From an uncultured Gammaproteobacteria bacterium (GTDB lineage Bacteria; Patescibacteriota; Microgenomatia; CAZXEC01), in NCBI GenBank assembly GCA_964639595.1, contig CAZXEC010000001.1:254498-318497 (forward strand): a stretch of 64,000 bases of DNA. The letters are read 5' to 3'. Under the pieces are notes generated by a model. The model did no database searches, was not told the origin of the DNA, and saw nothing but the letters and a program-made list of their open reading frames with translations. Of the stretch, positions 25,682 through 40,556 are shown piece by piece. How positions within the stretch are numbered: the stretch's first letter is position 1; each line of letters begins with the position of its first letter. Position numbers and translations under genes: made by a program.

Positions 25682-26487
25682 TGGAAATATCTATTATCAT
25701 TGTTTCTTACAATACCAAAGATAAGTTATCTAGCCTGTTGCGATCACTTACTGATGCGGGAATTGGACTGGACTGGCAGGTAATTGTGGTTGATAATGCC
25801 TCAACCGATGGCACAGTTAAGATGCTGGAGCAGCAATTTCCTGACGTCATCCTGGTCAAAAATAACCGGAATTTAGGCTTTGCCAGGGCTTGTAATATTG
25901 GTTTTGCCAAATCAAATGGCCGGTTCTTGTTTTTTTTGAATCCCGACACAGAAATAAAACCGCAGGTGGTGGAAAAATTAGTCGAATTTGCCAGTTATCA
26001 TGCTGATTGTGGCATAGTGGCGCCTCAACTATTAAATGGTGATGGCTCGCCTCAAGCTTCGGTCAGAAACTTGCCCACCCTGTGGCGGGCCATCCGTCAG
26101 TATTGGCTGGGCCAGTTGGGAGTTTATGATTTTTACCTGCCAGGCGGAGCTGCAGTATCGGTAGAGAGTGTGACCGGAGCGGCCATGCTCATTCACCGAA
26201 ATATTTTTGAAAAAGTTGGCGGTTTTGATGAGAGATATTTTATGTATTTTGAAGATTTAGAGTTATGCCGCCAAGTTATCTCCCTGGGCTATAAAATATA
26301 TTACTTACCGCAACTGACCATTGTTCACCACAAAGGCGCCAGCGCCCAAACCATAGGTGGTAAAGCATTCCAGATGCTTAAGATAAGTAGTAAAATATAT
26401 CATGGATGGGCGCAAGCGTTCTTGATTGATGTGGTGATTAGAAGTGGGCGAATATGCAAGAAATTATTAGGTCGAAATACAAAATAG
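25678..26487 (+). CDS. GT2 glycosyltransferase
   Basis: ISIIIVSYNTKDKL, VVDNASTDGT and YFEDLELC motifs. Confidence 0.85.
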   Translation: MMEISIIIVSYNTKDKLSSLLRSLTDAGIGLDWQVIVVDNASTDGTVKMLEQQFPDVILVKNNRNLGFARACNIGFAKSNGRFLFFLNPDTEIKPQVVEKLVEFASYHADCGIVAPQLLNGDGSPQASVRNLPTLWRAIRQYWLGQLGVYDFYLPGGAAVSVESVTGAAMLIHRNIFEKVGGFDERYFMYFEDLELCRQVISLGYKIYYLPQLTIVHHKGASAQTIGGKAFQMLKISSKIYHGWAQAFLIDVVIRSGRICKKLLGRNTK

Positions 26488-28157
26488 CGGTCGTCGTTAT
26501 CCTGGTTTTTGCCGCCTTTATCCGTTTTTTTGGCCTTGATAAAATTCCGCCGGAACTGTTTGGGGATGAGTTGGATGTTGGCTATCAGGCCTATTCCATC
26601 CTCACAACCGGCAAGGATTACCTGGGACATGCCTGGCCGCTTTATTTCCAATCATTTGCCGAAGCCCGGGCGCCGTTGTTTTTATATTCGGCTGTGCCGC
26701 CGGTGGCCGCATTTGGCTTAAACGAATTGGGAATTCGCGCTGCGGCGGCCTTTTTCGGGGTGGTCGGACTGGCGCTGTTGTATTTTGTGACCAAAAAGAT
26801 GTTTGCCGACAAGCCACCGGTGGCCATCCTGGCGCTTATTTTGGGGGCCATTTCTCCCTGGCACTTACAGTATTCCCGAGCCGCTTTTGAAGTCACGCTA
26901 CTGCTATCACTTTTCCTGGCAGGATTGCTGGCCTTCCTGCTGGCTTCTAAAAAACCTGTTTGGCTAATAGTTACTGCCATCACCTGGGCCTTGATGCCGT
27001 ATACTTATAACACGGCCAGTTTATTCTTACCGTTATTCTTACTTATCATAATAATCATCTATTTTGTGGAAATTAAAAGCTGGATCAAGCTGCCTGTTTT
27101 TTGGGCTGCGGCGGTGCTGTTTATGCTGTTGCTCTTGCCTATTATTGGCGAGCAATTTGCCAAAGGGGCAGAAAGATTTGGCAATATTAATATCACCACC
27201 GATGGTTCACAGCAGCTAGAGATTAATCTCAAAAGACAACAGGATGTCAACCTATCGTCGCAGCTGTCGGCCATTTACCACAATAAACCCTTGGCTTGGT
27301 CTTATCTGGCTGCTAAAAATTATGTTACTTCGCTGTCTCCCCAGTTTTTGTTTACCGAAGGCGATCCCAGGATGAGGCATAGTGTTGGTGAGATGGGGGA
27401 GTTTTATTGGTTTCAACTGCCGCTGCTCATTTTAGGTTTGATAACTTTGGCAAAAACAGATCTAAAAGTCAGAGTCTTGCTAATTGCCTGGATATTGCTG
27501 GCGCCGGTGCCTGCCGCCCTGACTCGTGATGGCGGGCATCACGCCACCCGCTTATTTTTGCTGCTGCCGCCCCTGTTGATTATTATGGCATTGGGAGCCA
27601 GCTTTCTTTTTGATTTAGCTAAGAAAAATCTGTCATGGAAGCTTATTGCTTACAGCTTATTGCTTACAGCTGCCTTGAACATAGCTTTTTTTGCCCACCG
27701 TTATTCCGTTCATTATCCCCAGGAATCATGGCGCTGGTGGCAGGTGGGATATAGAGAGGCTTTTGGCGAAATTAAAAAAGTAGCAGGCCAGTATGACCGG
27801 ATTGTCATTAATAATACTTACGAACCGGCCCTGATCCGCTTTTTAGTCTACAACCAATACGATCCGGCGCTTTTCCAGCAGCAATTTGTTCTCGACCAGT
27901 CAATCAAAAATGTCTTGCCGGGCATTGATGGATTTTCTTTGGGCAAATATTATTTTGGCACCTTATCCGGTGATATCAGGCAGAATGGCGGCTTTTCCAA
28001 AGCCATCGCTGATGGCATGCTTTATCTGGCTTCCCAAAGGGACGAAGTGCCTGGAGATCTTAATCTGTCTAAACAACCGCCGGATAATGTTAAAGTCTTG
28101 CAAAAAATCAACAATCCATTTGGTGAGGTGATCTTTTATTTGTTGACCAAAAGATAA
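26454..28157 (+). CDS. PMT/ArnT-like (GT39-type) membrane glycosyltransferase, paralog 1 of 5
   Basis: DELDVGYQAYSIL loop motif and ISPWH motif. Same architecture as 28158, 29807, 31536 and 38850. Confidence 0.7.
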   Translation: MQEIIRSKYKIAVVVILVFAAFIRFFGLDKIPPELFGDELDVGYQAYSILTTGKDYLGHAWPLYFQSFAEARAPLFLYSAVPPVAAFGLNELGIRAAAAFFGVVGLALLYFVTKKMFADKPPVAILALILGAISPWHLQYSRAAFEVTLLLSLFLAGLLAFLLASKKPVWLIVTAITWALMPYTYNTASLFLPLFLLIIIIIYFVEIKSWIKLPVFWAAAVLFMLLLLPIIGEQFAKGAERFGNINITTDGSQQLEINLKRQQDVNLSSQLSAIYHNKPLAWSYLAAKNYVTSLSPQFLFTEGDPRMRHSVGEMGEFYWFQLPLLILGLITLAKTDLKVRVLLIAWILLAPVPAALTRDGGHHATRLFLLLPPLLIIMALGASFLFDLAKKNLSWKLIAYSLLLTAALNIAFFAHRYSVHYPQESWRWWQVGYREAFGEIKKVAGQYDRIVINNTYEPALIRFLVYNQYDPALFQQQFVLDQSIKNVLPGIDGFSLGKYYFGTLSGDIRQNGGFSKAIADGMLYLASQRDEVPGDLNLSKQPPDNVKVLQKINNPFGEVIFYLLTKR

Positions 28158-29810
28158 ATGCCTAAAACATACCTAATATTAATTTTGGTTTTGGCGGCAG
28201 TCTTGAGACTGTCTTTCTTGGGACAATTTCCCGCCGGCTTTTCAGCGGATGAGGCCAATTTCGGCTATACTGCCTATTCAATTTTAAAAACCGGACATGA
28301 CGAGTGGGGAGAGCCGTTGCCTGTTTTCCCCAGGACTTTTGGTGATTTTAAGTCGCCCATTTATATCTACTTAACAGTTCCGGCAATTGCCATTTTCGGC
28401 CTCACAGAATTTGCGGTGCGCCTGCCGGCCGCATTGCTGGGAATATTGTCAGTTGTAATTGTCTATTTTCTGGTTGGAGTTTTATTTAAAGATAATAAAA
28501 GTCAACTGTCAACTGTTAACTGTCAACTGTTGGCCAGTTTCTTGCTGGCCATCTCCCCCTGGCATTGGCCCTTATCCCGGGTGGGCATTGAGACTTCTTT
28601 AATTTCTTTTTTTACTTCGCTGGTTCTTTACAGTTTTATCAAAGCCCAAGCAAACGCCAGATGGTTGGTTGCGGCTCTGGCAGTCGCCTCGTTGGGAGTT
28701 TATTCCACCAATTCCGCCAAATTATTTTTGCCATTGATATCGGCTTTCATGTTAGCGTTTGGCTGGAAGCATTATTGGGCCAATAAAAAAATCCTTTTGA
28801 CCGGTTTGGTTGTATCAGCAGCAATCCTCTTGCCGGCCATCATTCACAGTTCGGCTTTTTCCAGGCGGGCTGCCGATGTATCAATTTTTAATCCGACTGC
28901 CGGCTGGGAAGAGGTGTCCAAAAGACAATTTGAAAGCAACCTGCCCAGAGCCCTGGAGAGAATCTTTACCAATAAATTAACCTATACCCTGGGTGAAGTT
29001 TTCAAAAATTATGTGGGCTATTATTCGCCGCAGTTTTTGTTTACCAACGGCCCGTCCGAGCCGACTTACGGCATGATTCCGGGCCGGGGAGTCTTATATA
29101 TTTTTGAACTGCCGCTGGTCGTTTTGGGCTGGGTATTTTTGTTTGTTGGCAAGCATAAATATCGCTATCTGCTCTTGTTTTGGCTGCTTAGTGCTGCTTT
29201 GCCGGCCGCCCTGTCCAAAACAGCCGAGCATGCCAGTCGGGCAGCCACCTTCCTGCCGTTATGGTCGGTAATTTCTGCTTACGGTTTTTATGAAATTTGG
29301 CAGAGATGGCAGCGCTTGAGATCCTCACGTCTGCTTCAGGCAGCCCTGACACTGGTGCTGGTGTTTTCTGTTGCTTCTTTTGCCAACGACTATTTTTTCC
29401 ATGCTCCCAAAAGATTGGCCCGGTTTATGCATTATGGCGCCAAAGAAACAGTGGCATATTTAAAATCTCAAGAAGCCGCCTACCGCTTGATTATCATGGG
29501 CCAGCCATTTTCCGAAGCCCAAGTGTTTACGGCTTTTTATCAGCCGATTGAGCCGAGAGAATATCAGAAATATGCGCCGCAATTATTAAAATACGAGCAG
29601 GGCGGTCGAACTTTTTTGGACCAGTTGCCAGTTTATACGATCGGCAAGTATGAATATCGGGGTCTTAACTGGAATGATGACAAGACCCTCAAAGGAATGT
29701 TGCTGGTGGGCAAAGCGGCTGATTTTCCGGAAAAAGTTAATGCCCAAAAAATTATTTATGATCCGGCTGGTGAGCCGCTTTATAAAATTGTTGATCCGGA
29801 AAAGTTATGA
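28158..29810 (+). CDS. PMT/ArnT-like membrane glycosyltransferase, paralog 2
   Basis: DEANFGYTAYSIL and ISPWHW motifs. It carries the (GTCAACT)x4 insert. Confidence 0.7.
   Translation: MPKTYLILILVLAAVLRLSFLGQFPAGFSADEANFGYTAYSILKTGHDEWGEPLPVFPRTFGDFKSPIYIYLTVPAIAIFGLTEFAVRLPAALLGILSVVIVYFLVGVLFKDNKSQLSTVNCQLLASFLLAISPWHWPLSRVGIETSLISFFTSLVLYSFIKAQANARWLVAALAVASLGVYSTNSAKLFLPLISAFMLAFGWKHYWANKKILLTGLVVSAAILLPAIIHSSAFSRRAADVSIFNPTAGWEEVSKRQFESNLPRALERIFTNKLTYTLGEVFKNYVGYYSPQFLFTNGPSEPTYGMIPGRGVLYIFELPLVVLGWVFLFVGKHKYRYLLLFWLLSAALPAALSKTAEHASRAATFLPLWSVISAYGFYEIWQRWQRLRSSRLLQAALTLVLVFSVASFANDYFFHAPKRLARFMHYGAKETVAYLKSQEAAYRLIIMGQPFSEAQVFTAFYQPIEPREYQKYAPQLLKYEQGGRTFLDQLPVYTIGKYEYRGLNWNDDKTLKGMLLVGKAADFPEKVNAQKIIYDPAGEPLYKIVDPEKL
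28501..28528 (+). repeat. Heptanucleotide tandem repeat (GTCAACT)x4 with one C>T variant, inside the paralog-2 coding sequence
   Basis: Directly read: gtcaactgtcaactgttaactgtcaact. It encodes SQLSTVNCQ, an insertion relative to paralogs 1 and 3. Confidence 0.85.
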
Positions 29811-31462
29811 TCAAAAAAATTATCTTAATACTGGTAATTGTTCTGGCTGCCCTGCTGCGTTTCTGGCAGCTGTCCGATTACCCGCCGCATGCCAATTGGG
29901 ACGAGGCTTCCCTGGGGTATAACGCCTATTCAATTTTAACTACCGGACGTGACGAGTGGGGGCAGTTTTTGCCTTTGACCTTTCGGGCTTTTGGCGATTA
30001 CAAATTGCCCGGTTATATCTACACTTCCGTGCCGTTTGTGGCCGCTTTTGGCTTAAACGAATTTTCCATCCGTTTTGCCTCGGCTTTTTTTGGCACACTG
30101 ACAGTCCTGCTGGTCTTTTTGTTAGCCAGGCTTTTGACCCGGAAATATTCTCTGGCAACAATTGCGGCCTTCTTGCTGGCCATTTCTCCCTGGCATGTCT
30201 TTTTATCCCGGATTGCCCTGGAAGCCAATCTGGCCCTGTTTTTCCTGGTCTTGGGAATTTTCCTTTTTGTCAAATTTATTACACAGTTTGAGAACAGGAT
30301 AGCACCCCAGCTTATTTTGCTTATCGCTTGCCCCTTGTCCCTTGTTGCTGCTTTATATACTTACAACAGCGCCAGAGTGGTGGTACCATTGTTGGTTTTA
30401 TTACTGGCTGCCAATTATTACTCCCTGCTGAAAAAATTAAAAAAACAGTTGGTACTGATGCTGGTACTTTTGGTGGTTTTATCTGTGCCGGCTTTTTCTC
30501 TGGCCATCAAGCAGGATTCCAGCGCCCGCTATCGTTGGACTGCTATTTTAGACGAGGGGGCAACCAACTTCATCAATGAATCGCGCCGGACCTCTGCCTA
30601 CCCCACACCCCTCAAAGAGCTTGTTTATAACAAAATCACTTATACCCTGCCAAGAGTAGTGGCTGGGTATCTGTCGCATTTTAGCCCGGACTTTTTATAT
30701 TTTAAGGGCGGCAGTAATTTTCAATTTAATATTCCCGGGTTTGGATTGTTTTACCCTCTGGAAATGCCGTTTCTGGTTTTGGGGGTGATGGTGGCTTTCT
30801 GGCAAAAAAGCCCCTGGAGATGGCTGCTTATAGGTTGGATGTTGACCGGCCCCATTCCGGCTGCCATTACCCGTGATGCGCCTCATGCTCTGCGGTCGCT
30901 TTTTATGATGCCCGCCCCGCAGATTTTAGAAGCCTTTGGCCTGTTGTGGTTTTTGGATTCTTTGAAAAAGCCGGTCTTGGAAAGAGCCCTGGCTGTTGGC
31001 TTTGGACTGATTTTTGTGGTCGCCAGTTTTTTCTATTGGCAACTTTATACCAATCTTTACACCAGAGATTATTCCTGGTCCTGGCAATACGGTTATAAAC
31101 AAGCCATTGCTTATGTTGAAAAAAACCAGGACAAATATCAACAGATTATCGTGACCAAAAAATACGGGGAGCCGCATATTTTCCTGTTGTTTTACACTCA
31201 CTATCCGCCGGACCAGTATAGAAACGATCCGCAGCTGAAACGTTACTTTCAAACCGATTGGTACTGGGTAGATAGTTTTTATAAATATCAATTCATCAAT
31301 GACTGGGATATCAAACAAAAGGGGAGAGAAATTCAGATTAAAAAGGGCGGCCAACCAACTCTGCTTGTTGCCAGCCCCGGCAATTATCCGGTTGATGCCA
31401 AATTGGTGGAGAGTATCTATTTCCTGGACGGCAAAAAAGCCTTTGATCTGGTGGAGTTGTAG
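29807..31462 (+). CDS. PMT/ArnT-like membrane glycosyltransferase, paralog 3
   Basis: DEASLGYNAYSIL and ISPWHVF motifs. Confidence 0.7.
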   Translation: MIKKIILILVIVLAALLRFWQLSDYPPHANWDEASLGYNAYSILTTGRDEWGQFLPLTFRAFGDYKLPGYIYTSVPFVAAFGLNEFSIRFASAFFGTLTVLLVFLLARLLTRKYSLATIAAFLLAISPWHVFLSRIALEANLALFFLVLGIFLFVKFITQFENRIAPQLILLIACPLSLVAALYTYNSARVVVPLLVLLLAANYYSLLKKLKKQLVLMLVLLVVLSVPAFSLAIKQDSSARYRWTAILDEGATNFINESRRTSAYPTPLKELVYNKITYTLPRVVAGYLSHFSPDFLYFKGGSNFQFNIPGFGLFYPLEMPFLVLGVMVAFWQKSPWRWLLIGWMLTGPIPAAITRDAPHALRSLFMMPAPQILEAFGLLWFLDSLKKPVLERALAVGFGLIFVVASFFYWQLYTNLYTRDYSWSWQYGYKQAIAYVEKNQDKYQQIIVTKKYGEPHIFLLFYTHYPPDQYRNDPQLKRYFQTDWYWVDSFYKYQFINDWDIKQKGREIQIKKGGQPTLLVASPGNYPVDAKLVESIYFLDGKKAFDLVEL

Positions 31463-31535
31463 ATAAATTAAGAATTGATAATTTACTCCACTTCGTCCGT
31501 CAGCCAACGGACTACGATGGGCACAGCAATTTACA

Positions 31536-33263
31536 ATGACGAGCAAAATATTATTTGCAACTATTTTATTGATTGCCTTTGTGTTGCGGTTCTGGCAACT
31601 GGGCCAGTCTCCCAGCCTGTATTGGGACGAGCCGGCCATCGGCTACAATGCCTATTCCATTCTGACCACCGGCCGTGACGAGTATGGCAATGTCTTCCCC
31701 TTCACCTTCCGCTCATTTGATGACTATAAAGCTCCCGGCTATATTTATCTGACAGTCCCGTCTGTTGCTATTTTTGGCCTCACAGAATTTGCCGTTCGCT
31801 TCCCCTCGGCCCTGCTGGGAGTGTTAACCGTGGCGCTAGTTTATTTCTTAGTGGGAGAGCTACTTAAATTAGGTCGCAGTCAGCAGTCCAGCAGTCAGCG
31901 GTTTGCTGTTTGCTGTCAGCTGTTATCTATGGCCTCGCTGGCCATCTCCCCCTGGCACATCCATGTTTCTCGGATTGGCTTTGAAGCCAACGCCGCCGTA
32001 TTTTTCCTGACTCTGGGCATATTTCTATTCGTCAAGTTTATTGACGAATCCAAGAGTCAAGCCCCGCGAAGTCCGTCGGCTGACGGACGAAGTAGGGCTA
32101 CGTCTACCTTCTTGCTTATCGCTTTCCCCTTGCCCCTTATCGCTTCTTTATATACTTATCACAGCTCCAGATTATTAATACCGCTTCTTCTTACGGTATA
32201 TTTGATATTTTTCTGGAAAAAGTTCAATAAACAACTTCTGGTTAAGTTGGCGCTGGTGGTGTTAGTTTTATTAATCCCGCTTGCTCTTGTGATGCTGCGT
32301 CCGGAAACTCAAAACAGGGTGATTTGGTCCAGTCTTTTTTCCTACCAGCGGCCACCTGAAGAAATTAACCGGTTGGCTCAAATTGATCAGGCCCAAAGGC
32401 AAGATTTATCTTTTGGCCTATTGCATTCGGAGCCGGAATATTTTACCAAGGGTTTCCTGTCGCGCATGACCAATCATCTCTCGCCGATATTTTTATTCCT
32501 GAAAGGCGATGATAATCAGCGGTTGGGATTTGGCACCGTCGGTATTTATTATCTGTTTGAACTGCCGTTTTTTATACTGGGTGTCGTCTTTTTAACAAAG
32601 CATAAAACCACGGCTGTAATTTTATTACCTTGGTTTTTATTGGGAATTTTGCCGGCGGCACTGACCCGCGACCAAACTAACCTGCTCCGATCCCTCAACG
32701 CTTATGTGGCGGGAAATATCATCATCGGTTTGGGCGCGGCTTCGTTTTACCAGTACCTAACAGCCGGAAAAGTATTGGTCAGATCAGTAATTTTTATTCC
32801 CATGGCCGGTCTGATCTTGTGGAATGTGGGGTTTTTCCTGGATAATTATTTCGTCCATTACGCCAACAGAACCGCCCCATATTGGCAATATGGCTATAAG
32901 CAGGTAGTATCCAAGGTTTCAGCTTTGCAAGATAAATATGACAAGATTTACGTCTCCACCGACTACGGCCAGCCTTATATTTATTTCTTGTTTTACCAAA
33001 AATATCCGCCGGCCAAATATCAGCCGCAAGCCAGGCTTGTCAAAGACCCCCACAGCGTTGATGTGGGTGAAGGTGCCGGATATGATAAATTTGAGTTTCG
33101 CAAACTTTACTGGCCGGCTGATCGGGGTTTGAGAAAGAGTTTGTTTGTCGGCTCGCCGGAACAGCTGCCGGAAAAAGACATTGACCCCAAAGAGGCCCGC
33201 ATCATTGACCGTGTGTATTTCCCCAACGGCCCGGAGGCCTTTAGAATAGTGGAGACGTTATAA
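31536..33263 (+). CDS. PMT/ArnT-like membrane glycosyltransferase, paralog 4
   Basis: DEPAIGYNAYSIL and ISPWHIH motifs. It contains two low-complexity inserts (31877-31920 and 32065-32095). Confidence 0.7.
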   Translation: MTSKILFATILLIAFVLRFWQLGQSPSLYWDEPAIGYNAYSILTTGRDEYGNVFPFTFRSFDDYKAPGYIYLTVPSVAIFGLTEFAVRFPSALLGVLTVALVYFLVGELLKLGRSQQSSSQRFAVCCQLLSMASLAISPWHIHVSRIGFEANAAVFFLTLGIFLFVKFIDESKSQAPRSPSADGRSRATSTFLLIAFPLPLIASLYTYHSSRLLIPLLLTVYLIFFWKKFNKQLLVKLALVVLVLLIPLALVMLRPETQNRVIWSSLFSYQRPPEEINRLAQIDQAQRQDLSFGLLHSEPEYFTKGFLSRMTNHLSPIFLFLKGDDNQRLGFGTVGIYYLFELPFFILGVVFLTKHKTTAVILLPWFLLGILPAALTRDQTNLLRSLNAYVAGNIIIGLGAASFYQYLTAGKVLVRSVIFIPMAGLILWNVGFFLDNYFVHYANRTAPYWQYGYKQVVSKVSALQDKYDKIYVSTDYGQPYIYFLFYQKYPPAKYQPQARLVKDPHSVDVGEGAGYDKFEFRKLYWPADRGLRKSLFVGSPEQLPEKDIDPKEARIIDRVYFPNGPEAFRIVETL

Positions 33264-33752: not shown

Positions 33753-34244
33753 GTGCTCAATTCATTCGAACCTGGGGAAATCCGGCTTAAAAAATTATTA
33801 AATACAATGCCTGTCGAACATGGTCTATCTCTGCCGGAAACAGAACTGGATAAACTGCGTCATCTAAAAGAGCGGTTAGTGGGAGAAGACCGCTTAAAAT
33901 TCAACATTGGCAGGCTATGCTTATCTTATGTCCGATTCCGAGTCTATGTGGAAGCAATCACCAGTGCCGAGGCATCTTTGCCAGAACGGGCGTGCCAATC
34001 CATAGAATTTGTGGATGGGATACTCAAGCATTGCCTTGCCAATACTTTCACTTCTATACTGCGGACGGAAAATCCAGACCTGATAGGTTACGCCACACTA
34101 TTATTGGAGCAACAGCGAGGTTTTCTTAACGGCGATCTTGACTATTTGACTTTTCCCATTCCATTCAGTCATGGCATGGACATTCAGGGTCTGCTGTGGA
34201 GTAATCCTGAAGCGGAAACCCGCAAACCGGAGAGCTGGCGGTGA
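33753..34244 (+). CDS. Hypothetical protein (163 aa, GTG start) immediately upstream of the CRISPR array
   Basis: ORF only, with no recognisable motif. It ends 18 nt before repeat 1. Confidence 0.35.
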   Translation: MLNSFEPGEIRLKKLLNTMPVEHGLSLPETELDKLRHLKERLVGEDRLKFNIGRLCLSYVRFRVYVEAITSAEASLPERACQSIEFVDGILKHCLANTFTSILRTENPDLIGYATLLLEQQRGFLNGDLDYLTFPIPFSHGMDIQGLLWSNPEAETRKPESWR

Positions 34245-34262
34245 AAGAGAAACTAATAGACA

Positions 34263-34811
34263 GTTGCATTCCTTAATTCTTCTTAAGAGGTTCTGCAGGC
34301 TGTTTATACAAATCGAGTTCTATCTCCATACTTAGTTGCATTCCTTAATTCTTCTTAAGAGGTTCTGCAGGGCGTCAAAACGAGCTGGTTAAGTTGAAGT
34401 CTTAACGGTTGCATTCCTTAATTCTTCTTAAGAGGTTCTGCAGGCAAAAAGGGACGCATAACTGCATCCCGTAATTTAAGTTGCATTCCTTAATTCTTCT
34501 TAAGAGGTTCTGCAGGTTCTGATATATAATAGTTAAAAGAAGCCCGAAGTTGAAGTTGCATTCCTTAATTCTTCTTAAGAGGTTCTGCAGGTTCTAATAA
34601 TAACTGCTTAAACCCTCGTTTACTTCCAAAGTTGCATTCCTTAATTCTTCTTAAGAGGTTCTGCAGGTTAAATGCAGCTATGAAATATCATGGAGAATTT
34701 GGTTGCATTCCTTAATTCTTCTTAAGAGGTTCTGCAGGGGTGATGGCACCGCCAAAACAGGTGTTGAAGATATAGTTGCATTCCTTAATTCTTCTTAAGA
34801 GGTTCTGCAGG
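34263..34811 (-). CRISPR. CRISPR array of 8 identical 37-bp repeats (plus strand GTTGCATTCCTTAATTCTTCTTAAGAGGTTCTGCAGG) and 7 spacers of 34-39 bp
   Basis: Repeats start at 34263, 34335, 34408, 34480, 34555, 34631, 34702 and 34775. An internal CTTAA/TTAAG stem is present. The minus-strand transcription call is inferred from the cas gene orientation and from the repeat reverse complement ending in AAGGAATGCAAC (see findings). Confidence 0.95.
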
Positions 34812-35095
34812 AGCTCTGAATTTGAGGCTAAGAATTGACCTTTTAACCCCCAAATTTTTAGTGAACCCCTTTTCTGCATAAAATATGTCAAGGTTCGCAG
34901 ATTCTCTGTAAAACCCAAAGAGAAGAACTAAAAATTGTAGTGTTCAGTCCACTTTAGTCCTAAGGGGCTAAAGTTTTCCTATTGCTTTTGAACGGTAACG
35001 AGGACCTAAAGCAAGCCCACTCTACTGCTGTGCAACACAGCCCTTGCATAATTCTCAAGCATATAGCTGAGAACTCGTCGTTAAAAACGATAATA
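34812..35095. ncRNA. Non-coding region between the array and the effector gene; candidate leader and tracrRNA locus
   Basis: 284 bp without a plausible ORF. It contains repeat-like fragments: TCAAGGTTCGCAGATTCTC (34888-34906) and CTTGCATAATTCTCAAGC (35043-35060, resembling the repeat 5' half with two short deletions), plus a GCTGTG-CAA-CACAGC hairpin (35026-35040). Confidence 0.3.
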
Positions 35096-36853
35096 TCAGA
35101 TTTTTATCTCTTTGTAAAGCGCATTTGCGATATTGATTGCGGCATTTAGATCGGCATTCATATTATGGCCACATTCTCGATTAACACATCTAAAAAAACC
35201 TTTGTTTCTGTCACCAGTCTTATGACACATTGAACATATTTGCGATGTATACTCTGGATTTATAAATCTTATCGGTATTCCGGCTTTCAAGGCTTTGTAT
35301 TCAATGAGTTTTTGTAGTTTACCATAAGAAAAATTTGATAGCATAAATCTTATTTTTCTTTCTTGTAATGCAGTTCCTTTCTTGATTCTTTTTTCTCCTT
35401 GGGTAATTTTTAGCTTTTCCATTGCAATCACGATTGGTTTTAATTCTTTGGCCTGATTAACAATTTGTCTTGAAAAGTTATGGAGCATATAATCTGAAAT
35501 TCTAGCTACTTTTTTCCCAAACTGCGCCCGACGTTTATTCACACCTTTTGTCCCCGTAAACTTTTTCCTAATGAGCTGGTACTTTGTCTTTTGGGCCATT
35601 AATCCGTGGCCAGGATAAAATTTGATGAAGCAAGGTTTACCATTGGGTTTATCGACCACAGCCGTAACAGCCGTCTGATTAACGCCTCTATCTATACCCA
35701 TAATTTTAGTCTTGCTATCTATTTTCGGTTCCTCAAATTCTTGAACTAGAGGATAGCTGAGGTAAAAATTGCCCCGTTTTCTTAGCAATAGAGGATATTT
35801 AAGCTCTCCCTCTTTAATTTTTCTTATGATATCCAGAAACCAACTCTTATTTTTTTCTGATTTTATAGTATTAACGATCAGAGTAAATTTCTCTTGTTTG
35901 CCATCAATACTCAATTTCACAAATTGCTCGTTAATATCTTTTACAGATGTGTTTTGTAAATCGACAATATTCCCCTTGAAAAGTACTTTTGTTTCTTTGA
36001 GTCTTTTTTGAAGCTTTTCAATGGTTTTATTTAACGCTTCTATGGTCCCTCGTATTGTAGATTCCGTTTTACCTCTTGATGGATTCTCCTTAAAAAGAAT
36101 ATGTTTATAGCGATCAACTCTTTGGTTTTGCTGACGAGGTAATGTAAATCTACTTGTAGTGTTTTTTTGTTTTATTTCATCTTTTAATCGATTTAAAACA
36201 TCTAACACTCCTGCGTTATTTTTGTAACGTTCTAACCATTTTTTGAGAGTAGTTGATGCGATCTTGTCATTATCTAAAACTTCTTGCCATTCAATTGCTC
36301 GACGTTGCGTTATAAAAATAGTTGAGTACACATTATTTAATTGTTTTTTGTATGAATTCAGCGTATCGTTTGCGCGTTTAAAAGCTAACGCATACTCTGT
36401 GCCGGGCAATTTGACAGCATCTCTCACATCTCCATATTGGCTACGTTTTCTATTGCCTGTTGCATATAAAATCTTTCTAATTGAGAATTCTTTATTCCAA
36501 CATTTGCCACAAACTAATTCTATGCCGTCCTTCTTTTTGCGGATTATTAATGATTTCTGCCCACAAGTCTTACATATTTTATTACGGTCGTTCCTGTTCT
36601 TACCTTCTGGTTTGTGCCCTTTGCAGGATACATAACTTTTTAAGCAATAAGAGCACTTTCCATTCAATCCTTGGCTGCCACCTGTGTCCTTTTTAATAAA
36701 CTCATAATTGTTTCGTTGACCCTCTTCTACTATTTGAATTTTTTTCGCAAAAAAGTTGACAGCCTTACTAAATCTACTAAAGTATGACTCTAAAAAATCT
36801 TCCTGTGTTAAAGTAGGAACAAACTTAAAACTATATGAGGTAGTAAGTTTCAT
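35096..36853 (-). CDS. Compact type V effector, TnpB-like Cas12f/Cas14-like nuclease (585 aa)
   Basis: RuvC-I (IMGIDRGVNQTAV), RuvC-II (IVIAMEKLK) and RuvC-III (NADLNAAINIANALY) motifs. A CxxC...CxxC zinc finger (YTSQICSMCHK ... CVNRECGH) sits between RuvC-II and RuvC-III. There is an extra N-terminal Cys-rich zinc ribbon (CSYC ... CKTCGQ ... CGKCW). It is located between cas4 and the array. Confidence 0.85.
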   Translation of the reverse strand: MKLTTSYSFKFVPTLTQEDFLESYFSRFSKAVNFFAKKIQIVEEGQRNNYEFIKKDTGGSQGLNGKCSYCLKSYVSCKGHKPEGKNRNDRNKICKTCGQKSLIIRKKKDGIELVCGKCWNKEFSIRKILYATGNRKRSQYGDVRDAVKLPGTEYALAFKRANDTLNSYKKQLNNVYSTIFITQRRAIEWQEVLDNDKIASTTLKKWLERYKNNAGVLDVLNRLKDEIKQKNTTSRFTLPRQQNQRVDRYKHILFKENPSRGKTESTIRGTIEALNKTIEKLQKRLKETKVLFKGNIVDLQNTSVKDINEQFVKLSIDGKQEKFTLIVNTIKSEKNKSWFLDIIRKIKEGELKYPLLLRKRGNFYLSYPLVQEFEEPKIDSKTKIMGIDRGVNQTAVTAVVDKPNGKPCFIKFYPGHGLMAQKTKYQLIRKKFTGTKGVNKRRAQFGKKVARISDYMLHNFSRQIVNQAKELKPIVIAMEKLKITQGEKRIKKGTALQERKIRFMLSNFSYGKLQKLIEYKALKAGIPIRFINPEYTSQICSMCHKTGDRNKGFFRCVNRECGHNMNADLNAAINIANALYKEIKI

Positions 36854-36855
36854 CG

Positions 36856-37452
36856 TTAGTTAATATTCTTATAACAATTATCAATTGCTTTTCTCTTATT
36901 CCTTGTCCCCTTTGGTAATCTTTCTGATTGTATTATACTCTCAATCTCGTTAAAAATCTTTAATAATTCATCTTTTAGTGCTTTTGTAATCCTTACCCTT
37001 ATAAAGTCCCCTGATTTTAGAAACTTAACAAAACCAAACGGCACTTTATATCCTAACCTCTCTTCTATTAATAAAGCCTCCATGATAACCTGAAATTTTT
37101 GTGACAGATACAAAAATTTAGGTTTTGAACTATATTTTACTTGAATAGGATAAGCTTCATGTAGTTTTTTGTTAATTGCAACACAATCTACCTTTGTAGA
37201 GATTTTATACTTACTAGATGTCAAGTATACGTCATATATTTTAGCTAAAAACGGCAACTCTTTGATTACCTTATTTCTTCTTGACTTTCTAGAGAATTCG
37301 ACATATTTTTGCCTACCCTCGATTTCCTTAATTGTTGTAGCTTGGGGAATTTTGAGGACGTGAATGTAATATATAATTCTAGGATCATAAAGGTAATTCA
37401 TTAAGTCGGTGGCTGTTAAATAATTTTGCATCGGTTTAAATAAATATAACAT
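36856..37452 (-). CDS. cas4: Cas4-like PD-(D/E)xK nuclease-fold protein lacking the Fe-S cysteine cluster
   Basis: The N-terminus YLTATDLMNYLYDPRIIYY matches the Cas4 hTGTDhxxYxYCPR signature with Cys replaced by Asp. There is a central VDCVAI ... PIQVKY motif and a QKFQVIMEALLIEE motif (QhxxY-like). Only one C-terminal Cys is present instead of the usual three. It overlaps cas2 by 17 nt. Confidence 0.6.
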   Translation of the reverse strand: MLYLFKPMQNYLTATDLMNYLYDPRIIYYIHVLKIPQATTIKEIEGRQKYVEFSRKSRRNKVIKELPFLAKIYDVYLTSSKYKISTKVDCVAINKKLHEAYPIQVKYSSKPKFLYLSQKFQVIMEALLIEERLGYKVPFGFVKFLKSGDFIRVRITKALKDELLKIFNEIESIIQSERLPKGTRNKRKAIDNCYKNIN

Positions 37453-37720
37453 CTCTATTTTTTATTAAAAACTCATTGGCCGGCCCGAATGCAATCCTCT
37501 TTGAAAACTCCTCCTCACTTGATGGGAAGATGAGAACCTTGTCATTTTTTGATTTCATTATCTTTTTAATCTCTAAACTTAGCATTTCTGCCTTATTTCT
37601 AGTCAAATTTCCTGAAAAGGCACTTTTTTGTATCCGTTTTAACCCGTAATCCTTACAGAGATTGGATACTTTACTCCGAATATTATTTTTGGAAATATCG
37701 TAGATAACCCAATAGACCAT
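37436..37720 (-). CDS. cas2: Cas2 (94 aa)
   Basis: MVYWVIYDIS ... N-terminus with the catalytic Asp, typical length, and position between cas1 and cas4. Confidence 0.85.
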   Translation of the reverse strand: MVYWVIYDISKNNIRSKVSNLCKDYGLKRIQKSAFSGNLTRNKAEMLSLEIKKIMKSKNDKVLIFPSSEEEFSKRIAFGPANEFLIKNRDVIFI

Positions 37721-37724
37721 AGTC

Positions 37725-38714
37725 CTACTTATAAATATAAGGTGAAAAATCTCTTTTATTACCTAATAGATATGCAGAAATTTCCCTAGTCTGTGCAAGT
37801 ATGATATCTCTCAAAATTAATTTCTTACCTTTGTAAGTAAGTTTGGTATTTAGTCTGTTGATTACAGCTTGAATTAGTTTTCTTTTACCTTTTTGTGATA
37901 GTGTGAGATCACCGGTTTTATCAAAATCCTTACCATTAATCTGTTTCCTATTAAACAATGTGACTATCGCTCTGTCCGAAATAGCTACTCTAAATAACTC
38001 TGTGACGTCTAAGACCAGTGACGGTTTACCGTATCTATCTGTATGATAGAAGCCCAAGTATGGGTCAAGTCCAGCTATAATGCAGGCTCTCTCAACTTCA
38101 GAATAGAGCATGCCATATGCATAATTTAGGCAGACATTAAACATGTCTTCACCGTTTTTATTTCTTTTGGTAAATCCTGTTATAAGCCCCAGGCCCCTGA
38201 AGTATTTTGCTGCAGTTGCCCCCTCCACTCCTAAAAGTGTGCTTCTTAGTTTATCAATAGGATTACTAGTAATGAGCTTGCTTTTTGGGAATTTTGTTTT
38301 GCTTAACTGATTTAATTGTGTATTAGTTTTTCTGTCTTTTGACAGAGATTTCAAATAATTAATCTGACTTCTAATTTTGCCTTCAACGAATTTAACAATT
38401 AGATGCTTCCCCTTTTTTGATAAATATGCCTCAAGTTGTTTTCTACGAGTTAAGGTCGTTCCACCCATATATGGACTATACGTTCTGGCGAAGGGTTTCC
38501 CTTTCCAATCTAGATAAACAATATCAATATGCTTTTCAATGGCTAACTTTACAGCTTCTGTGGAGATACTGGCAGGGGCGGTAAATAACACTTGTCTGAT
38601 TGTATCAGCTGAATATTCACTTTTTTTACCTTTATTATTTACTATCAGCCTATTACCAGACTTAGTTAGGTAAGTTCCAACTTCTTCTATTGCAAGAACA
38701 GAGTTATTAATCAT
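37725..38714 (-). CDS. cas1: Cas1 integrase (329 aa)
   Basis: Typical Cas1 layout with a conserved acidic/His cluster (NYAYGMLYSEVERA ... GFYHTDRYGKPSLVLDVTELFR). It is the first gene of the minus-strand cas1-cas2-cas4-cas12 operon. Confidence 0.9.
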   Translation of the reverse strand: MINNSVLAIEEVGTYLTKSGNRLIVNNKGKKSEYSADTIRQVLFTAPASISTEAVKLAIEKHIDIVYLDWKGKPFARTYSPYMGGTTLTRRKQLEAYLSKKGKHLIVKFVEGKIRSQINYLKSLSKDRKTNTQLNQLSKTKFPKSKLITSNPIDKLRSTLLGVEGATAAKYFRGLGLITGFTKRNKNGEDMFNVCLNYAYGMLYSEVERACIIAGLDPYLGFYHTDRYGKPSLVLDVTELFRVAISDRAIVTLFNRKQINGKDFDKTGDLTLSQKGKRKLIQAVINRLNTKLTYKGKKLILRDIILAQTREISAYLLGNKRDFSPYIYK

Positions 38715-38849: not shown

Positions 38850-40556
38850 ATGGATAAAAAGGGGCTGGTAAACTGGCTGTTTGTGGCTGTGGTGGCACTG
38901 GCTGTGGTCTTGCGGTTGTATAACCTGACCCAATATCCGCCGGGGTTTACGGCTGATGAGGCGGCCATTGGCTATAATGCCTATTCGCTGCTGCAGACCG
39001 GCCGTGATGAATACGGCACGCCCTGGCCTCTGGTGTTCCGCTCCTTTGATGACTATAAACCCCCGTTATATTTCTATTTAGTGCTGCCGTTTATGGCCGT
39101 GTTGGGGCCAACCGAGCTGGCAGTGCGGCTGCCGTCGGCCTTGTTGGGGATTGGAACAGTTGTTTTGGTATATTTTCTGGCAAAGAGACTTGCTTACAGC
39201 CGACAGCAGATAGCCGACAGCTATATGCCACTGGCAGCCAGTTTCCTGCTGGCAATCAACCCCTGGCATCTGCACTATTCACGCGGCGGCTGGGAAGCCA
39301 ACGCCGGCACCTTCTTTTTGACCCTTGGCATATTTCTATTCGTCAAGTTTCTTGCAGATTCCCAATTAGCCACGCAAGGCGTCCCCTTGCGAAGCTATAG
39401 TAGCAGGGGGCCGTTATTGTTACTGATTGCTTCTGTCTTGTCTCTGATTGCCGCTTTCTACACTTATCACAGCATCAGGGTGGTGGCGCCGGTGCTGTTT
39501 GCCCTCTATGCAATACTTTTTTGGCGACAGCTCTGGCCGGCAAAAAAGGCGGTCATTTGGGCAGTGATGGCAGGAGGAGCGTTGCTTATTCCCCTGGCTC
39601 TGCAGTTTGTGTCAGGCAGTGGGGCAGCCCGCTTTGCCGGAGTGGGCATCTTTGCCGATAGCGGACCCTTTTGGCAGGTTAATCAGGCCCGGGGGGAACA
39701 TGCCAACCTAACAGGTATTGATGCCCGACTGTTCCATAATAAAGTAGCCGCCTACACCTTAAGTTTTGCCGGGCATTACCTGGATCATTTCACTGGCCAG
39801 TTCCTGTTTTTTGGCGGTGATGCCATTGGCCGCAATAACGTGCCGGAGATGGGCCAGCTGTATGTCTGGGAAATATTGACTTTAATAATTGGCTTGTGGC
39901 TGGCGGCCAGACAAGGTGGGCTACCAGCTAAAATAGTTTTGCCCTGGCTGCTTATTGCCCCGCTGGCAGCCTCACTGACCTTCCAGACGCCCCATGCTCT
40001 GCGGGCTGCCAACATGGCCGTGCCCCTGGCAATAATCTCCGGCTATGGCCTGTCTGTCCTCTTGGCCTGGATTTGGCAAATTCGCCGGGCAGCTGCGCGC
40101 TATTTGTTACTGCTGCTTACTGCCAGCTGTCTGCTGTTGGCTTTTGTTAAGTATCTGCACCAGTATTATGTCCATATTTCCCAGGAGCGGGCCCTGGAAT
40201 GGCAGTATGGTTTTGACCAATTGGTGCCGTTTGTGCTTGCCAAGCAAGATCAGTATAATAAGGTGGTCATAACCGATCGGTACGACCAGCCCTACATTCT
40301 CATGTTATTCTATTCAAAGTACGATCCCGCCCAATACCAACCCCAGGCCCAACTCTCCAGCCGCGACCGGTTTGGTTTTGGCACGGTGCGGGCTTTTGAC
40401 AAATATGAATTTAGACACATCACTCCCGATGAAGTAGAAAAGGCCACAAATACCCTGTTTGTCTTATCCGGTGATGAAGTTTATGAAGGAGTTAGTGTGC
40501 AAAAGACCATTGCCTTCCCCAATGGGAAGGTGGCTTTTGCCATGGTGGAAAAATGA
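38850..40556 (+). CDS. PMT/ArnT-like membrane glycosyltransferase, paralog 5
   Basis: DEAAIGYNAYSLL and INPWHLH motifs. It shares an identical 24-nt stretch (GGCATATTTCTATTCGTCAAGTTT) with paralog 4 (32018 vs 39320). Confidence 0.7.
   Translation: MDKKGLVNWLFVAVVALAVVLRLYNLTQYPPGFTADEAAIGYNAYSLLQTGRDEYGTPWPLVFRSFDDYKPPLYFYLVLPFMAVLGPTELAVRLPSALLGIGTVVLVYFLAKRLAYSRQQIADSYMPLAASFLLAINPWHLHYSRGGWEANAGTFFLTLGIFLFVKFLADSQLATQGVPLRSYSSRGPLLLLIASVLSLIAAFYTYHSIRVVAPVLFALYAILFWRQLWPAKKAVIWAVMAGGALLIPLALQFVSGSGAARFAGVGIFADSGPFWQVNQARGEHANLTGIDARLFHNKVAAYTLSFAGHYLDHFTGQFLFFGGDAIGRNNVPEMGQLYVWEILTLIIGLWLAARQGGLPAKIVLPWLLIAPLAASLTFQTPHALRAANMAVPLAIISGYGLSVLLAWIWQIRRAAARYLLLLLTASCLLLAFVKYLHQYYVHISQERALEWQYGFDQLVPFVLAKQDQYNKVVITDRYDQPYILMLFYSKYDPAQYQPQAQLSSRDRFGFGTVRAFDKYEFRHITPDEVEKATNTLFVLSGDEVYEGVSVQKTIAFPNGKVAFAMVEK

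What the first reader, a model, noticed from the sequence alone, without database searches (positions are those of the whole stretch)
34812..35095. Candidate tracrRNA / anti-repeat elements in the array-effector spacer region
Seen in sequence: the only sizeable non-coding region of the locus contains CTTGCATAATTCTCAAGC (35043-35060). This looks like the repeat 5' half (GTTGCATTCCTTAATTCTTCTTAAG) with two short deletions. As RNA from the plus strand it could pair with the crRNA 3' handle (AUGCAA / AGAAUU). Just upstream lies a GCUGUG-CAA-CACAGC hairpin, and TCAAGGTTCGCAGATTC (34888-34906) resembles the repeat 3' half.

Established knowledge: type V-F effectors need a tracrRNA with a short, imperfect anti-repeat, and it is encoded adjacent to the effector.

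Inference: a tracrRNA is encoded here. The alternative reading is that these fragments are decayed terminal repeats, but that would conflict with the inferred leader side.
Basis: inference. Interest (0 to 1): 0.65.

Follow-up and report, generated by a model that had tools for sequence, protein, structure and literature searches.

The report
Cas12f2-type tracrRNA, on the minus strand

Summary
The quoted strings are in the sequence. The locus reads cas1-cas2-cas4-cas12f(585 aa)-gap-array, all on the minus strand.

The specifics do not. In 14 homologous loci (effectors 48-85% identical) the gap is conserved and folds into a covarying structure. 35 of 57 pairs carry compensatory changes, against 14.3 in shuffles. 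G-U pairs outnumber A-C 43 to 11, which puts the RNA on the minus strand. A conserved extended -10 promoter overlaps the cas12f stop codon. A covariance model built without the window hits 35083..34906 (minus) at 172 bits, E about 3e-40.

The true anti-repeats are two. One is an invariant GUUGCA hairpin loop (35036-35031), complementary to the repeat 3' end. The other is a roughly 30-nt anti-repeat (34937-34905) that covaries with the repeat in divergent loci. This mirrors the Un1Cas12f1 (Cas14a1) guide RNA.

AATTCT lies in one arm of a covarying hairpin, and the plus-strand duplex with the crRNA is no better than chance.

Verdict: an uncatalogued but ordinary member of the type V-F tracrRNA kind. 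Expression and 3' end are untested.

The parts
37725..38714 (-). cas1
   Evidence: Pfam Cas_Cas1 E 7e-71; NCBIfam cas1.
37436..37720 (-). cas2
   Evidence: Pfam CRISPR_Cas2 E 2e-20.
36856..37452 (-). cas4
   Evidence: Pfam Cas_Cas4; NCBIfam cas4 E 7.5e-22.
35096..36853 (-). Cas12f2 (Cas14b)-like effector, 585 aa
   Evidence: Pfam Cas12f1-like TNB domain. PADLOC Cas14b model matched full length, E 2.4e-68. NCBIfam Cas12f2 scores 364 bits, below its cutoff of 450. 22% identical to the first 399 aa of Mi1Cas12f2/Cas14b4, E 3e-20. RuvC-position residues D388 and E479 are invariant and D568 nearly invariant in 17 homologs.
35090..35118 (-). Predicted tracrRNA promoter: -35 TTTACA (35118-35113), 17-nt spacer, TG (35098-35097), -10 TATTAT (35095-35090). 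It overlaps the effector stop codon (35098-35096).
   Evidence: The promoter scan gives 10 of 12 matches with an upstream TG. The TGnTAnnAT box is conserved 6-8 nt upstream of the conserved RNA start in the homologous loci. TTTACA or TTGACT sits about 17 nt upstream in most, including L001 and L020, whose effector C-termini differ.
34905..35083 (-). tracrRNA core. The 5' end is inferred near 35083. The 3' end is not determined; it lies at or beyond 34905.
   Evidence: A covariance model built from 14 other loci hits 35083..34906 on the minus strand at 172.3 bits, E 3.4e-40, covering model positions 1-180 of 180. Covariation statistics support the fold.
35078..35083 (-). P0 5' strand (UAACGA). 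It pairs with 35001-34996 (UCGUUA) in the loop of P4, forming a pseudoknot.
   Evidence: All 6 pairs show changes on both sides; 88.8% of cells are paired (helix 1).
35050..35075 (-). P1 hairpin.
   Evidence: Helices 2 and 3: 7 of 9 pairs have compensatory changes and 93-98% of cells are paired.
35027..35043 (-). P2 hairpin GGGCUGUG-UUG-CACAGC. It presents the invariant GUUGCA (35036-35031), which is complementary to the last 6 nt of the repeat (UGCAAC).
   Evidence: GTTGCA is invariant in 15 loci. The stem covaries: 4 of 5 pairs (helix 4). It corresponds to the Stem 3 loop of Un1Cas12f1 that forms AR:R 1 (PMC8053092; sequence).
34982..35014 (-). P4 hairpin (UUGCUU / AAGCAA). Its loop holds the P0 3' strand (35001-34996).
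   Evidence: 6 of 6 pairs are compensatory and 96.7% of cells are paired (helix 6).
34949..34976 (-). P5 hairpin (AAACUUUAGCCCCUUAGGACUAAAGUGG)
   Evidence: Helices 8 and 9: 8 of 10 pairs are compensatory, with many U-G pairs that are possible only on the minus strand.
34937..35020 (-). P3 long-range helix GUGG (35020-35017) with CACUAC (34942-34937). It closes the P4/P5 domain.
   Evidence: 98.3% of cells are paired. The G-C to G-U changes are compatible only with the minus strand (helix 5).
34905..34937 (-). Long anti-repeat CAAUUUUUAGUUCUUCUCUUUGGGUUUUACAGA. It pairs with repeat nt about 2-33, with a 4x4 internal loop.
   Evidence: The duplex is -25.8 kcal/mol, and 22 of 500 shuffles are as good. 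The homologous segment gives -25 to -40 kcal/mol in all 15 loci. It covaries with the repeat: L020 cognate -39.9 against -12.5 to -21.7 for non-cognate pairings.
34861..34898 (-). Invariant module of unknown role: GCGAACCUUGACAUAUUUUAUGCAGAAAAGGGGUUCAC.
   Evidence: The sequence is near-invariant in 15 loci. The putative stem is not supported by covariation (helix 11). There is no -10 box 16-19 nt after TTGACA. It is unique in the window.
34812..34860 (-). CRISPR leader. It is variable, with a conserved UUAGCCUCAAA motif at 34831-34821 next to the first repeat.
   Evidence: Alignment A2, columns 322-385.
34263..34811 (-). CRISPR array: 8 identical 37-nt repeats and 7 spacers of 34-39 nt. crRNA sense is CCUGCAGAACCUCUUAAGAAGAAUUAAGGAAUGCAAC followed by the spacer.
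   Evidence: Orientation rests on two points. The repeat is 27/37 identical to the Un1Cas12f1 repeat, including AAGGAAUGCAAC before the spacer. The decayed repeats in L002 and L010 lie at the end far from the effector.

Best explanation
The gap encodes a tracrRNA of about 180 nt or more on the minus strand, the same strand as cas12f and the array.

Proposed mechanism, with the status of each step:
1. Transcription starts near 35083 from an extended -10 promoter that overlaps the cas12f stop codon. (Inferred from a conserved promoter.)
2. The RNA folds into hairpins P1, P2, P4 and P5. A long-range helix P3 closes the P4/P5 domain, and a pseudoknot P0 joins the 5' end to the P4 loop. (Shown by covariation.)
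3. It pairs with pre-crRNA at two sites. The roughly 30-nt anti-repeat 34937-34905 pairs with repeat nt about 2-33. (Complementarity and covariation shown.) The invariant GUUGCA loop of P2 pairs with the repeat's last six bases, UGCAAC, next to the spacer. (Complementarity shown; pairing inferred by analogy with Un1Cas12f1 AR:R 1.)
4. The long duplex is probably cut by a host RNase such as RNase III. This would leave a crRNA carrying the 3' part of the repeat. (Inferred.)
5. The tracrRNA:crRNA pair loads the Cas12f2-like nuclease for PAM-dependent DNA cleavage. (Inferred from characterised Cas12f1 and Cas12f2.)
For: - Locus architecture is cas1-cas2-cas4-cas12f-gap-array.
- The gap is conserved in 14 loci whose effectors are only 48-85% identical.
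- RNAalifold predicts 35 pairs, 27 of them with compensatory changes.
- For the named structure, 91% of cells are paired against 45% or less when partners are slid. 35 pairs show double-sided change against 14.3 +/- 2.5 in shuffles, with 0 of 500 shuffles reaching the observed value.
- G-U cells outnumber A-C cells 43 to 11. Seven of the A-C cells sit at one loop-closing position.
- The minus-strand promoter TTTACA-17-TG-TATTAT is conserved across loci.
- The leave-one-out covariance model hits 35083..34906 on the minus strand at 172 bits, E 3.4e-40. The next hits are 19 bits or less and fall on the repeats.
- Anti-repeat:repeat duplexes of -25 to -40 kcal/mol occur at the homologous place in every locus. 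Cognate specificity is clear in L020, and there are repeat-matched substitutions in L014, L002 and L013.
- The repeat is homologous to the Un1Cas12f1 repeat, and the GGGCUG-N-UUGCA-N-CAGC motif is shared with Un1 Stem 3.
- The literature places Cas12f tracrRNAs between the nuclease gene and the array (PMC7229846; bioRxiv 10.1101/2023.02.03.527072).
Against: - There are no expression data, so the transcript ends are inferred.
- No intrinsic terminator follows the anti-repeat on the minus strand, so the 3' end is open. The RNA may run on into the leader and array.
- In the window alone the anti-repeat duplex is only marginally better than shuffles (22 of 500). By DNA identity it is not above chance (212 of 1000).
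- Single-sequence folding energy does not favour the minus strand: z is -0.93 for minus and -1.77 for plus.
- GUUGCA and UGCAAC are both invariant, so that pairing cannot be tested by covariation.
- The window's anti-repeat has an A-C mismatch against its own repeat at position 5. It fits the L002-type repeat better.
Confidence: 0.85

Rival explanations
1. A plus-strand tracrRNA whose anti-repeat is CUUGCAUAAUUCUCAAGC (35043-35060) pairs with AUGCAA and AGAAUU of a minus-strand crRNA.
For: The strings are present. UUGCAU is complementary to AUGCAA of the repeat.
Against: - The plus-strand gap against the crRNA repeat gives -17.1 kcal/mol, and 270 of 500 shuffles are as good. The best duplex is not at that segment.
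- TTGCAT is not conserved in any of the 14 homologs.
- AATTCTCAAGC is the 3' arm of hairpin P1, which covaries with its 5' arm and not with the repeat.
- The G-U excess and the promoter point to the minus strand.
- The model hit is on the minus strand only.
Confidence: 0.03
2. The structured RNA is not a separate tracrRNA. It is the 5' part of one long transcript (cas operon or tracr promoter, then leader, then array). It would act in cis on the first repeat and in trans after processing.
For: - No terminator follows the anti-repeat on the minus strand, and no canonical promoter lies between it and the array (by eye).
- In L001 the conserved region runs straight into a truncated repeat.
- L014 and L020 have a single repeat.
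Against: The conserved dedicated promoter at the effector stop codon argues for a separate start. This rival concerns only how the RNA is made. After processing it would work the same way, so it overlaps the main explanation.
Confidence: 0.1
3. The repeat-like fragments are decayed repeats or leader DNA motifs with no RNA function.
For: Within the window alone, neither direct nor inverted similarity to the repeat exceeds chance. The module 34861-34898 is conserved as sequence without covariation (helix 11).
Against: Compensatory changes occur in 35 pairs across 15 loci. The anti-repeat tracks repeat changes in L020 and L014. Decay would not preserve either. This reading may still hold for 34812-34898 only.
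Confidence: 0.02

Closest known systems
Un1Cas12f1 (Cas14a1, type V-F1) tracrRNA / sgRNA scaffold
   Same: - The RNA is encoded between the nuclease gene and the array.
- The repeat is 37 nt and 27/37 identical, with the same TGCAGAACC 5' part and AAGGAATGCAAC 3' end.
- A short hairpin (GGGCUG...CAGC) has a loop (UUGCAU in Un1, GUUGCA here) that pairs with the repeat 3' end. This is AR:R 1.
- A second, longer anti-repeat lies downstream and forms AR:R 2 (PMC8053092).
   Different: - Outside the Stem-3 motif there is no significant sequence similarity (local score 17; 118 of 500 shuffles do as well).
- The order and number of the other stems differ.
- Here the 5' end forms a pseudoknot with the P4 loop.
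- The effector is Cas12f2-like, bacterial (Patescibacteria relatives) and 585 aa, not the archaeal 529-aa Cas12f1.
Cas12f2 (Cas14b) systems: Mi1Cas12f2, Mi2Cas12f2, AuCas12f2
   Same: - The effector family is the closest match: PADLOC Cas14b matched full length and NCBIfam Cas12f2 is the best hit.
- The cas1-cas2-cas4 module is present.
[quoted passage not shown]
   Different: - Only 22% identity to Mi1Cas12f2 over the N-terminal 400 aa.
- The score is below NCBIfam's Cas12f2 cutoff.
- I found no published structure or boundaries for a Cas12f2 tracrRNA in the searched library, so no RNA-level comparison was possible.
TnpB omega-RNA (reRNA)
   Same: A structured guide scaffold is encoded at and just beyond the 3' end of a TnpB-family gene, on the same strand. 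The protein matches the TnpB family model (NF040570). The placement of the omega-RNA is from my own knowledge.
   Different: Here the scaffold is separate from the guide and pairs with CRISPR repeats in trans. An adaptation module and an array are present.
Type II (Cas9) tracrRNA, Rfam RF02348
   Same: A trans-encoded RNA with an anti-repeat that forms a long duplex with each repeat.
   Different: No Rfam match at E up to 1. The fold, effector and crRNA polarity are different; here the repeat handle is 5' of the spacer.

Membership tests
type V-F tracrRNA | Encoded next to the Cas12f effector, between the effector gene and the CRISPR array | tested here: met
   Conserved RNA at 35083-34905, between the effector stop (35096) and the first repeat (34811).
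type V-F tracrRNA | Contains an anti-repeat complementary to the CRISPR repeat on the strand that can pair with the crRNA | tested here: met
   Minus-strand gap against minus-strand repeat gives -25.8 kcal/mol over repeat nt 2-33. The homologous segment gives -25 to -40 kcal/mol in all 15 loci.
type V-F tracrRNA | The anti-repeat co-evolves with the repeat | tested here: met
   L020 cognate pairing is -39.9 against -12.5 to -21.7 for non-cognate pairings. L014's TTCTTTTTA matches its own repeat's TAAAAAGAA. C opposite G23 appears only in loci whose repeat has G23.
type V-F tracrRNA | Conserved secondary structure (protein-binding scaffold) | tested here: met
   35 of 57 pairs show double-sided changes and 0 of 500 shuffles reach that. 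91% of cells are paired against 45% or less for slid controls.
type V-F tracrRNA | Hairpin loop that pairs with the 3' end of the repeat (AR:R 1 of Un1Cas12f1) | tested here: inconclusive
   GUUGCA in the P2 loop is a perfect complement of UGCAAC and invariant in 15 loci. Both partners are invariant, so covariation cannot confirm the pairing.
type V-F tracrRNA | Expressed as a stable small RNA and required for effector activity | not testable with these tools
   No RNA-seq or biochemistry is available. Only a conserved promoter is seen.
type V-F2 (Cas12f2 / Cas14b) CRISPR-Cas system | Effector belongs to the Cas12f2 family | tested here: inconclusive
   PADLOC Cas14b model matched at residues 5-584, E 2.4e-68. 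NCBIfam Cas12f2 is the best hit, but at 364 bits it is below the 450 cutoff. 22% identity to Mi1Cas12f2.
type V-F2 (Cas12f2 / Cas14b) CRISPR-Cas system | Adaptation module cas1, cas2, cas4 and a CRISPR array in the same locus | tested here: met
type V-F2 (Cas12f2 / Cas14b) CRISPR-Cas system | Intact RuvC catalytic residues and C-terminal zinc-ribbon (TNB) domain | tested here: met
   D388 and E479 are invariant and D568 is nearly invariant. C540, C543, C556 and C561 are invariant in 17 homologs. The residues align to the RuvC motifs of solved TnpB/Cas12f chains. Pfam TNB domain, E 2e-20.
Rfam RNA families (any) | Match to a curated covariance model | tested here: not met
   No match at E up to 1 in 34000-35400. 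None at gathering score in the whole window.

The most novel reading that the evidence does not exclude
The tracrRNA itself may not be the only functional element in the gap. The invariant 38-nt module just downstream of the anti-repeat (34861-34898) copies the repeat's 5' half (CUGCGAACCUU, UGCAGAA) together with its complement (AAGRGGUUC). It fits neither a promoter, a terminator, a covarying hairpin nor an anti-repeat. It could be an undescribed control element. One possibility is a cis decoy that holds the anti-repeat closed until pre-crRNA arrives. Others are a processing, termination or adaptation signal for Cas12f2-type loci. Together with the pseudoknotted scaffold, that would define a guide-RNA architecture not yet described for type V-F2.
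Probability: 0.15. Interest if true: 0.5.

Novelty: new member of a known kind. Interest (0 to 1): 0.3.

Why it matters
Cas12f nucleases are sought as very small genome editors, and their use depends on knowing the tracrRNA exactly. This analysis gives the strand, start, fold and both repeat-pairing sites of the tracrRNA for a clade of Cas12f2-like systems from Patescibacteria-type genomes. All of it rests on comparative evidence. That is enough to design a single-guide RNA and test the nuclease. It does not change the concept of how type V-F systems work. It also shows that short repeat look-alikes read from one sequence can point to the wrong strand.

Tried and rejected
- Rfam, on the region at E up to 1 and on the whole window at gathering score: no family matched.
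- Single-sequence folding of both strands: the z-scores (-0.93 minus, -1.77 plus) do not discriminate, so they were not used.
- Local alignment of the window RNA to the Un1Cas12f1 scaffold: only the Stem-3 motif aligns, and it is not significant alone.
- DNA-identity tests of repeat-like segments in the window: not above chance in either orientation.
- AAGGGGUUC (34870-34862) as an anti-repeat: rejected, because it does not follow the repeat changes in L020, L009 or L002 (by eye), unlike 34937-34905.
- GCGAACC/GGUUCAC as a hairpin or terminator: rejected as unsupported. One of nine pairs is compensatory, three loci break it, and the U-run is offset.
- TTGACA (34891-34886) as the array's -35 box: no -10-like hexamer at 16-19 nt in any locus.
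- Protospacer search, to confirm crRNA polarity through a PAM. 26 spacers against INPHARED phages gave no match. Five window spacers against IMG/VR gave no match.
- A tracrRNA motif search in IMG/VR found nothing.
- Organism name through the cluster look-up: no name on record. tRNA scan of the window: none found.
- The genome and metagenome scans added only 2 useful loci. Most loci came from exact-protein look-ups.

Full report
**What is in the sequence**

The window carries a complete class 2 CRISPR-Cas locus on the minus strand:
- cas1 at 38714..37725, cas2 at 37720..37436 and cas4 at 37452..36856.
- A 585-aa effector with a Cas12f/TnpB-type C-terminal domain at 36853..35096.
- A 284-nt gap at 35095..34812.
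- An array of eight identical 37-nt repeats at 34811..34263.

The effector's best family matches are the PADLOC Cas14b model (residues 5-584, E 2.4e-68) and NCBIfam Cas12f2 (364 bits, below the curated cutoff of 450). Its N-terminal 400 residues align collinearly with Mi1Cas12f2/Cas14b4 at 22% identity (E 3e-20). Solved Cas12f and TnpB chains match its RuvC/TNB half. I call it Cas12f2-like, but membership is not strict.

The one exception is the second string, which ends at 34904 rather than 34906.

Within this one window it is not.
- The best direct match of the gap to the repeat scores no better than 299 of 1000 shuffles.
- The best duplex between plus-strand gap RNA and the crRNA repeat is -17.1 kcal/mol. 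270 of 500 dinucleotide shuffles are as good, and the duplex does not involve 35043-35060.

**Comparative evidence**

A protein search found 16 relatives of the effector at 48-85% identity. I retrieved their loci. All have cas1-cas2-cas4-effector followed by a gap of about 300 nt and then the array. One is a Candidatus Woykebacteria genome. Another is annotated Patescibacteria group bacterium.

The gap is strongly conserved although the proteins have diverged (alignments A2 and A3). RNAalifold predicts 35 pairs, 27 of them with compensatory changes. I added a long-range helix seen by eye. For the resulting structure, on A3:
- 91% of cells are paired, against 45% or less when partners are slid by 1-3 columns.
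- 35 of 57 pairs have changes on both sides, against 14.3 +/- 2.5 in shuffles. None of 500 shuffles reaches the observed value.

**Strand**

In the core helices, G-U cells outnumber A-C cells 43 to 11. Seven of the A-C cells sit at a single loop-closing position. G-U pairs would be A-C mismatches on the other strand, so the RNA is read from the minus strand.

A sigma-70-type promoter with an extended -10 lies on that strand: TTTACA, 17 nt, TG-n-TATTAT, at 35118..35090, with 10 of 12 matches. It overlaps the effector stop codon. The TGnTAnnAT box sits 6-8 nt upstream of the conserved RNA start in the homologous loci. The -35 box is kept in most of them, including L001 and L020, whose effector C-termini differ.

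A covariance model built from the 14 other loci, without the window, finds 35083..34906 on the minus strand at 172.3 bits, E 3.4e-40, over its full length. Nothing comparable appears elsewhere in the 64 kb.

**Polarity of the crRNA**

The minus-strand repeat is CCTGCAGAACCTCTTAAGAAGAATTAAGGAATGCAAC. It is 27/37 identical to the Un1Cas12f1 repeat as printed in a published sgRNA scaffold. It shares TGCAGAACC at the 5' end and AAGGAATGCAAC immediately before the spacer. In L002 and L010 the decayed repeat is the one farthest from the effector. Effector, tracrRNA and crRNA are therefore all on the minus strand.

**Anatomy, in minus-strand coordinates**

- P0: 35083-35078 (UAACGA) pairs with 35001-34996 (UCGUUA) inside the loop of P4, forming a pseudoknot. 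All six pairs covary.
- P1: hairpin 35075-35050.
- P2: hairpin 35043-35027, which presents GUUGCA at 35036-35031.
- P3: 35020-35017 with 34942-34937. It closes a domain holding P4 (35014-35009 with 34987-34982) and P5 (34976-34949).
- Anti-repeat: 34937-34905.

**Pairing with the repeat**

The anti-repeat pairs with repeat nucleotides about 2-33 at -25.8 kcal/mol; 22 of 500 shuffles are as good. The homologous segment does the same in every locus, at -25 to -40 kcal/mol. It also follows the repeat when the repeat changes:
- L020 has a divergent repeat (…CCTAAAATAACAAATATAGG…). Its anti-repeat matches it at -39.9 kcal/mol. Non-cognate combinations give only -12.5 to -21.7.
- L014's anti-repeat carries TTCTTTTTA opposite its own TAAAAAGAA.
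- C opposite repeat position 23 occurs only where the repeat has G there.

GUUGCA is invariant in all 15 loci and is the exact complement of the invariant repeat end UGCAAC. This two-site arrangement is the one solved for Un1Cas12f1. [quoted passage not shown] The Un1 motif GGGCUGCUUGCAUCAGCC resembles the window's GGGCUGUGUUGCACAGC.

AATTCTCAAGC is the 3' arm of P1, which covaries with its own 5' arm. TTGCAT (35044-35049) is specific to the window: homologs have ATGAAA, TTGAAA, GTGGAA or ATGATCAA on the minus strand. The segment at 34888-34904 lies in an invariant module downstream of the anti-repeat.

**Likely mechanism**

Shown:
- A conserved, structured minus-strand RNA element.
- Two segments complementary to the repeat, one of which co-evolves with it.

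Inferred:
- Transcription from the conserved promoter near 35083.
- Pairing with pre-crRNA.
- Cleavage of the roughly 30-bp duplex by a host RNase.
- Retention of the repeat 3' end held by the GUUGCA loop.
- Loading of the Cas12f2-like nuclease. Its RuvC-position residues D388 and E479 are invariant and D568 nearly invariant in the family.
- PAM-dependent DNA cleavage, as shown for other Cas12f2 proteins expressed from minimal loci that included this intergenic region (PMC7229846).

**Open points**

- The 3' end is unknown. No intrinsic terminator follows the anti-repeat, and no canonical promoter precedes the array. The RNA may run into the leader and array.
- The module 34861-34898 (GCGAACCUUGACAUAUUUUAUGCAGAAAAGGGGUUCAC) is almost invariant. 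Yet its possible stem does not covary (helix 11). It does not track repeat changes. Its TTGACA has no -10 partner. It is unique in the window.
- Single-sequence folding energies do not discriminate the strands.
- Spacer searches gave no protospacers, so a PAM-based check of polarity was not possible.

**Comparison and novelty**

Rfam has no matching family. I found no paper in the searched library that defines a Cas12f2 tracrRNA. The position and role of Cas12f tracrRNAs are well established. This is therefore a new, well-supported member of a known kind. The proposed strand and anti-repeat are wrong.

Noticed in passing
window 34861-34898 (minus strand): A near-invariant 38-nt module lies between the anti-repeat and the leader: GCGAACCTTGACATATTTTATGCAGAAAAGGGGTTCAC. 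It contains a perfect TTGACA, two partial direct copies of the repeat 5' end, and one inverted copy. It fits neither a promoter, a terminator, a covarying hairpin nor an anti-repeat.
   Followed up: partly
L020 5885-5921; L014 3928-3964; L001 about 7845-7940: Three homologous loci keep cas1-cas2-cas4-effector-tracrRNA but have almost no array. L020 and L014 each have a single repeat. L001 has a 5'-truncated repeat fused directly after the conserved module, plus one full repeat.
   Followed up: partly
window 34905-34937 versus repeats 34263-34811: The window's anti-repeat pairs better with the CCTGTAG-type repeat of L002 (-33.8 kcal/mol) than with its own CCTGCAG repeat (-25.8). The cause is an A-C mismatch at repeat position 5, which suggests a recent change in the repeat.
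   Followed up: partly
window 29807-33263 and 38850-40556: The CRISPR-Cas locus is flanked on both sides by paralogous genes of about 550-575 aa with PMT-family (dolichyl-phosphate-mannose glycosyltransferase) hits. Two further ORFs of similar size lie upstream (26454-29810) and were not scanned.
   Followed up: no
L007 1054-1518; L009 1207-1665; L013 206-664; L017 1676-2143: A small PDDEXK_3 (PF13366) gene sits directly upstream of cas1 in several homologous loci. It is absent from the window's locus.
   Followed up: no
L017 6799-7082: A 282-nt interval separates repeats 12 and 13 of an otherwise regular array. It could be an insertion or strongly decayed repeats.
   Followed up: no
window 34951-34974 (plus strand): The terminator scan flags a plus-strand hairpin followed by a T-run. 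It is the reverse complement of the covarying P5 hairpin of the minus-strand RNA, so it is probably not a terminator in its own right.
   Followed up: yes
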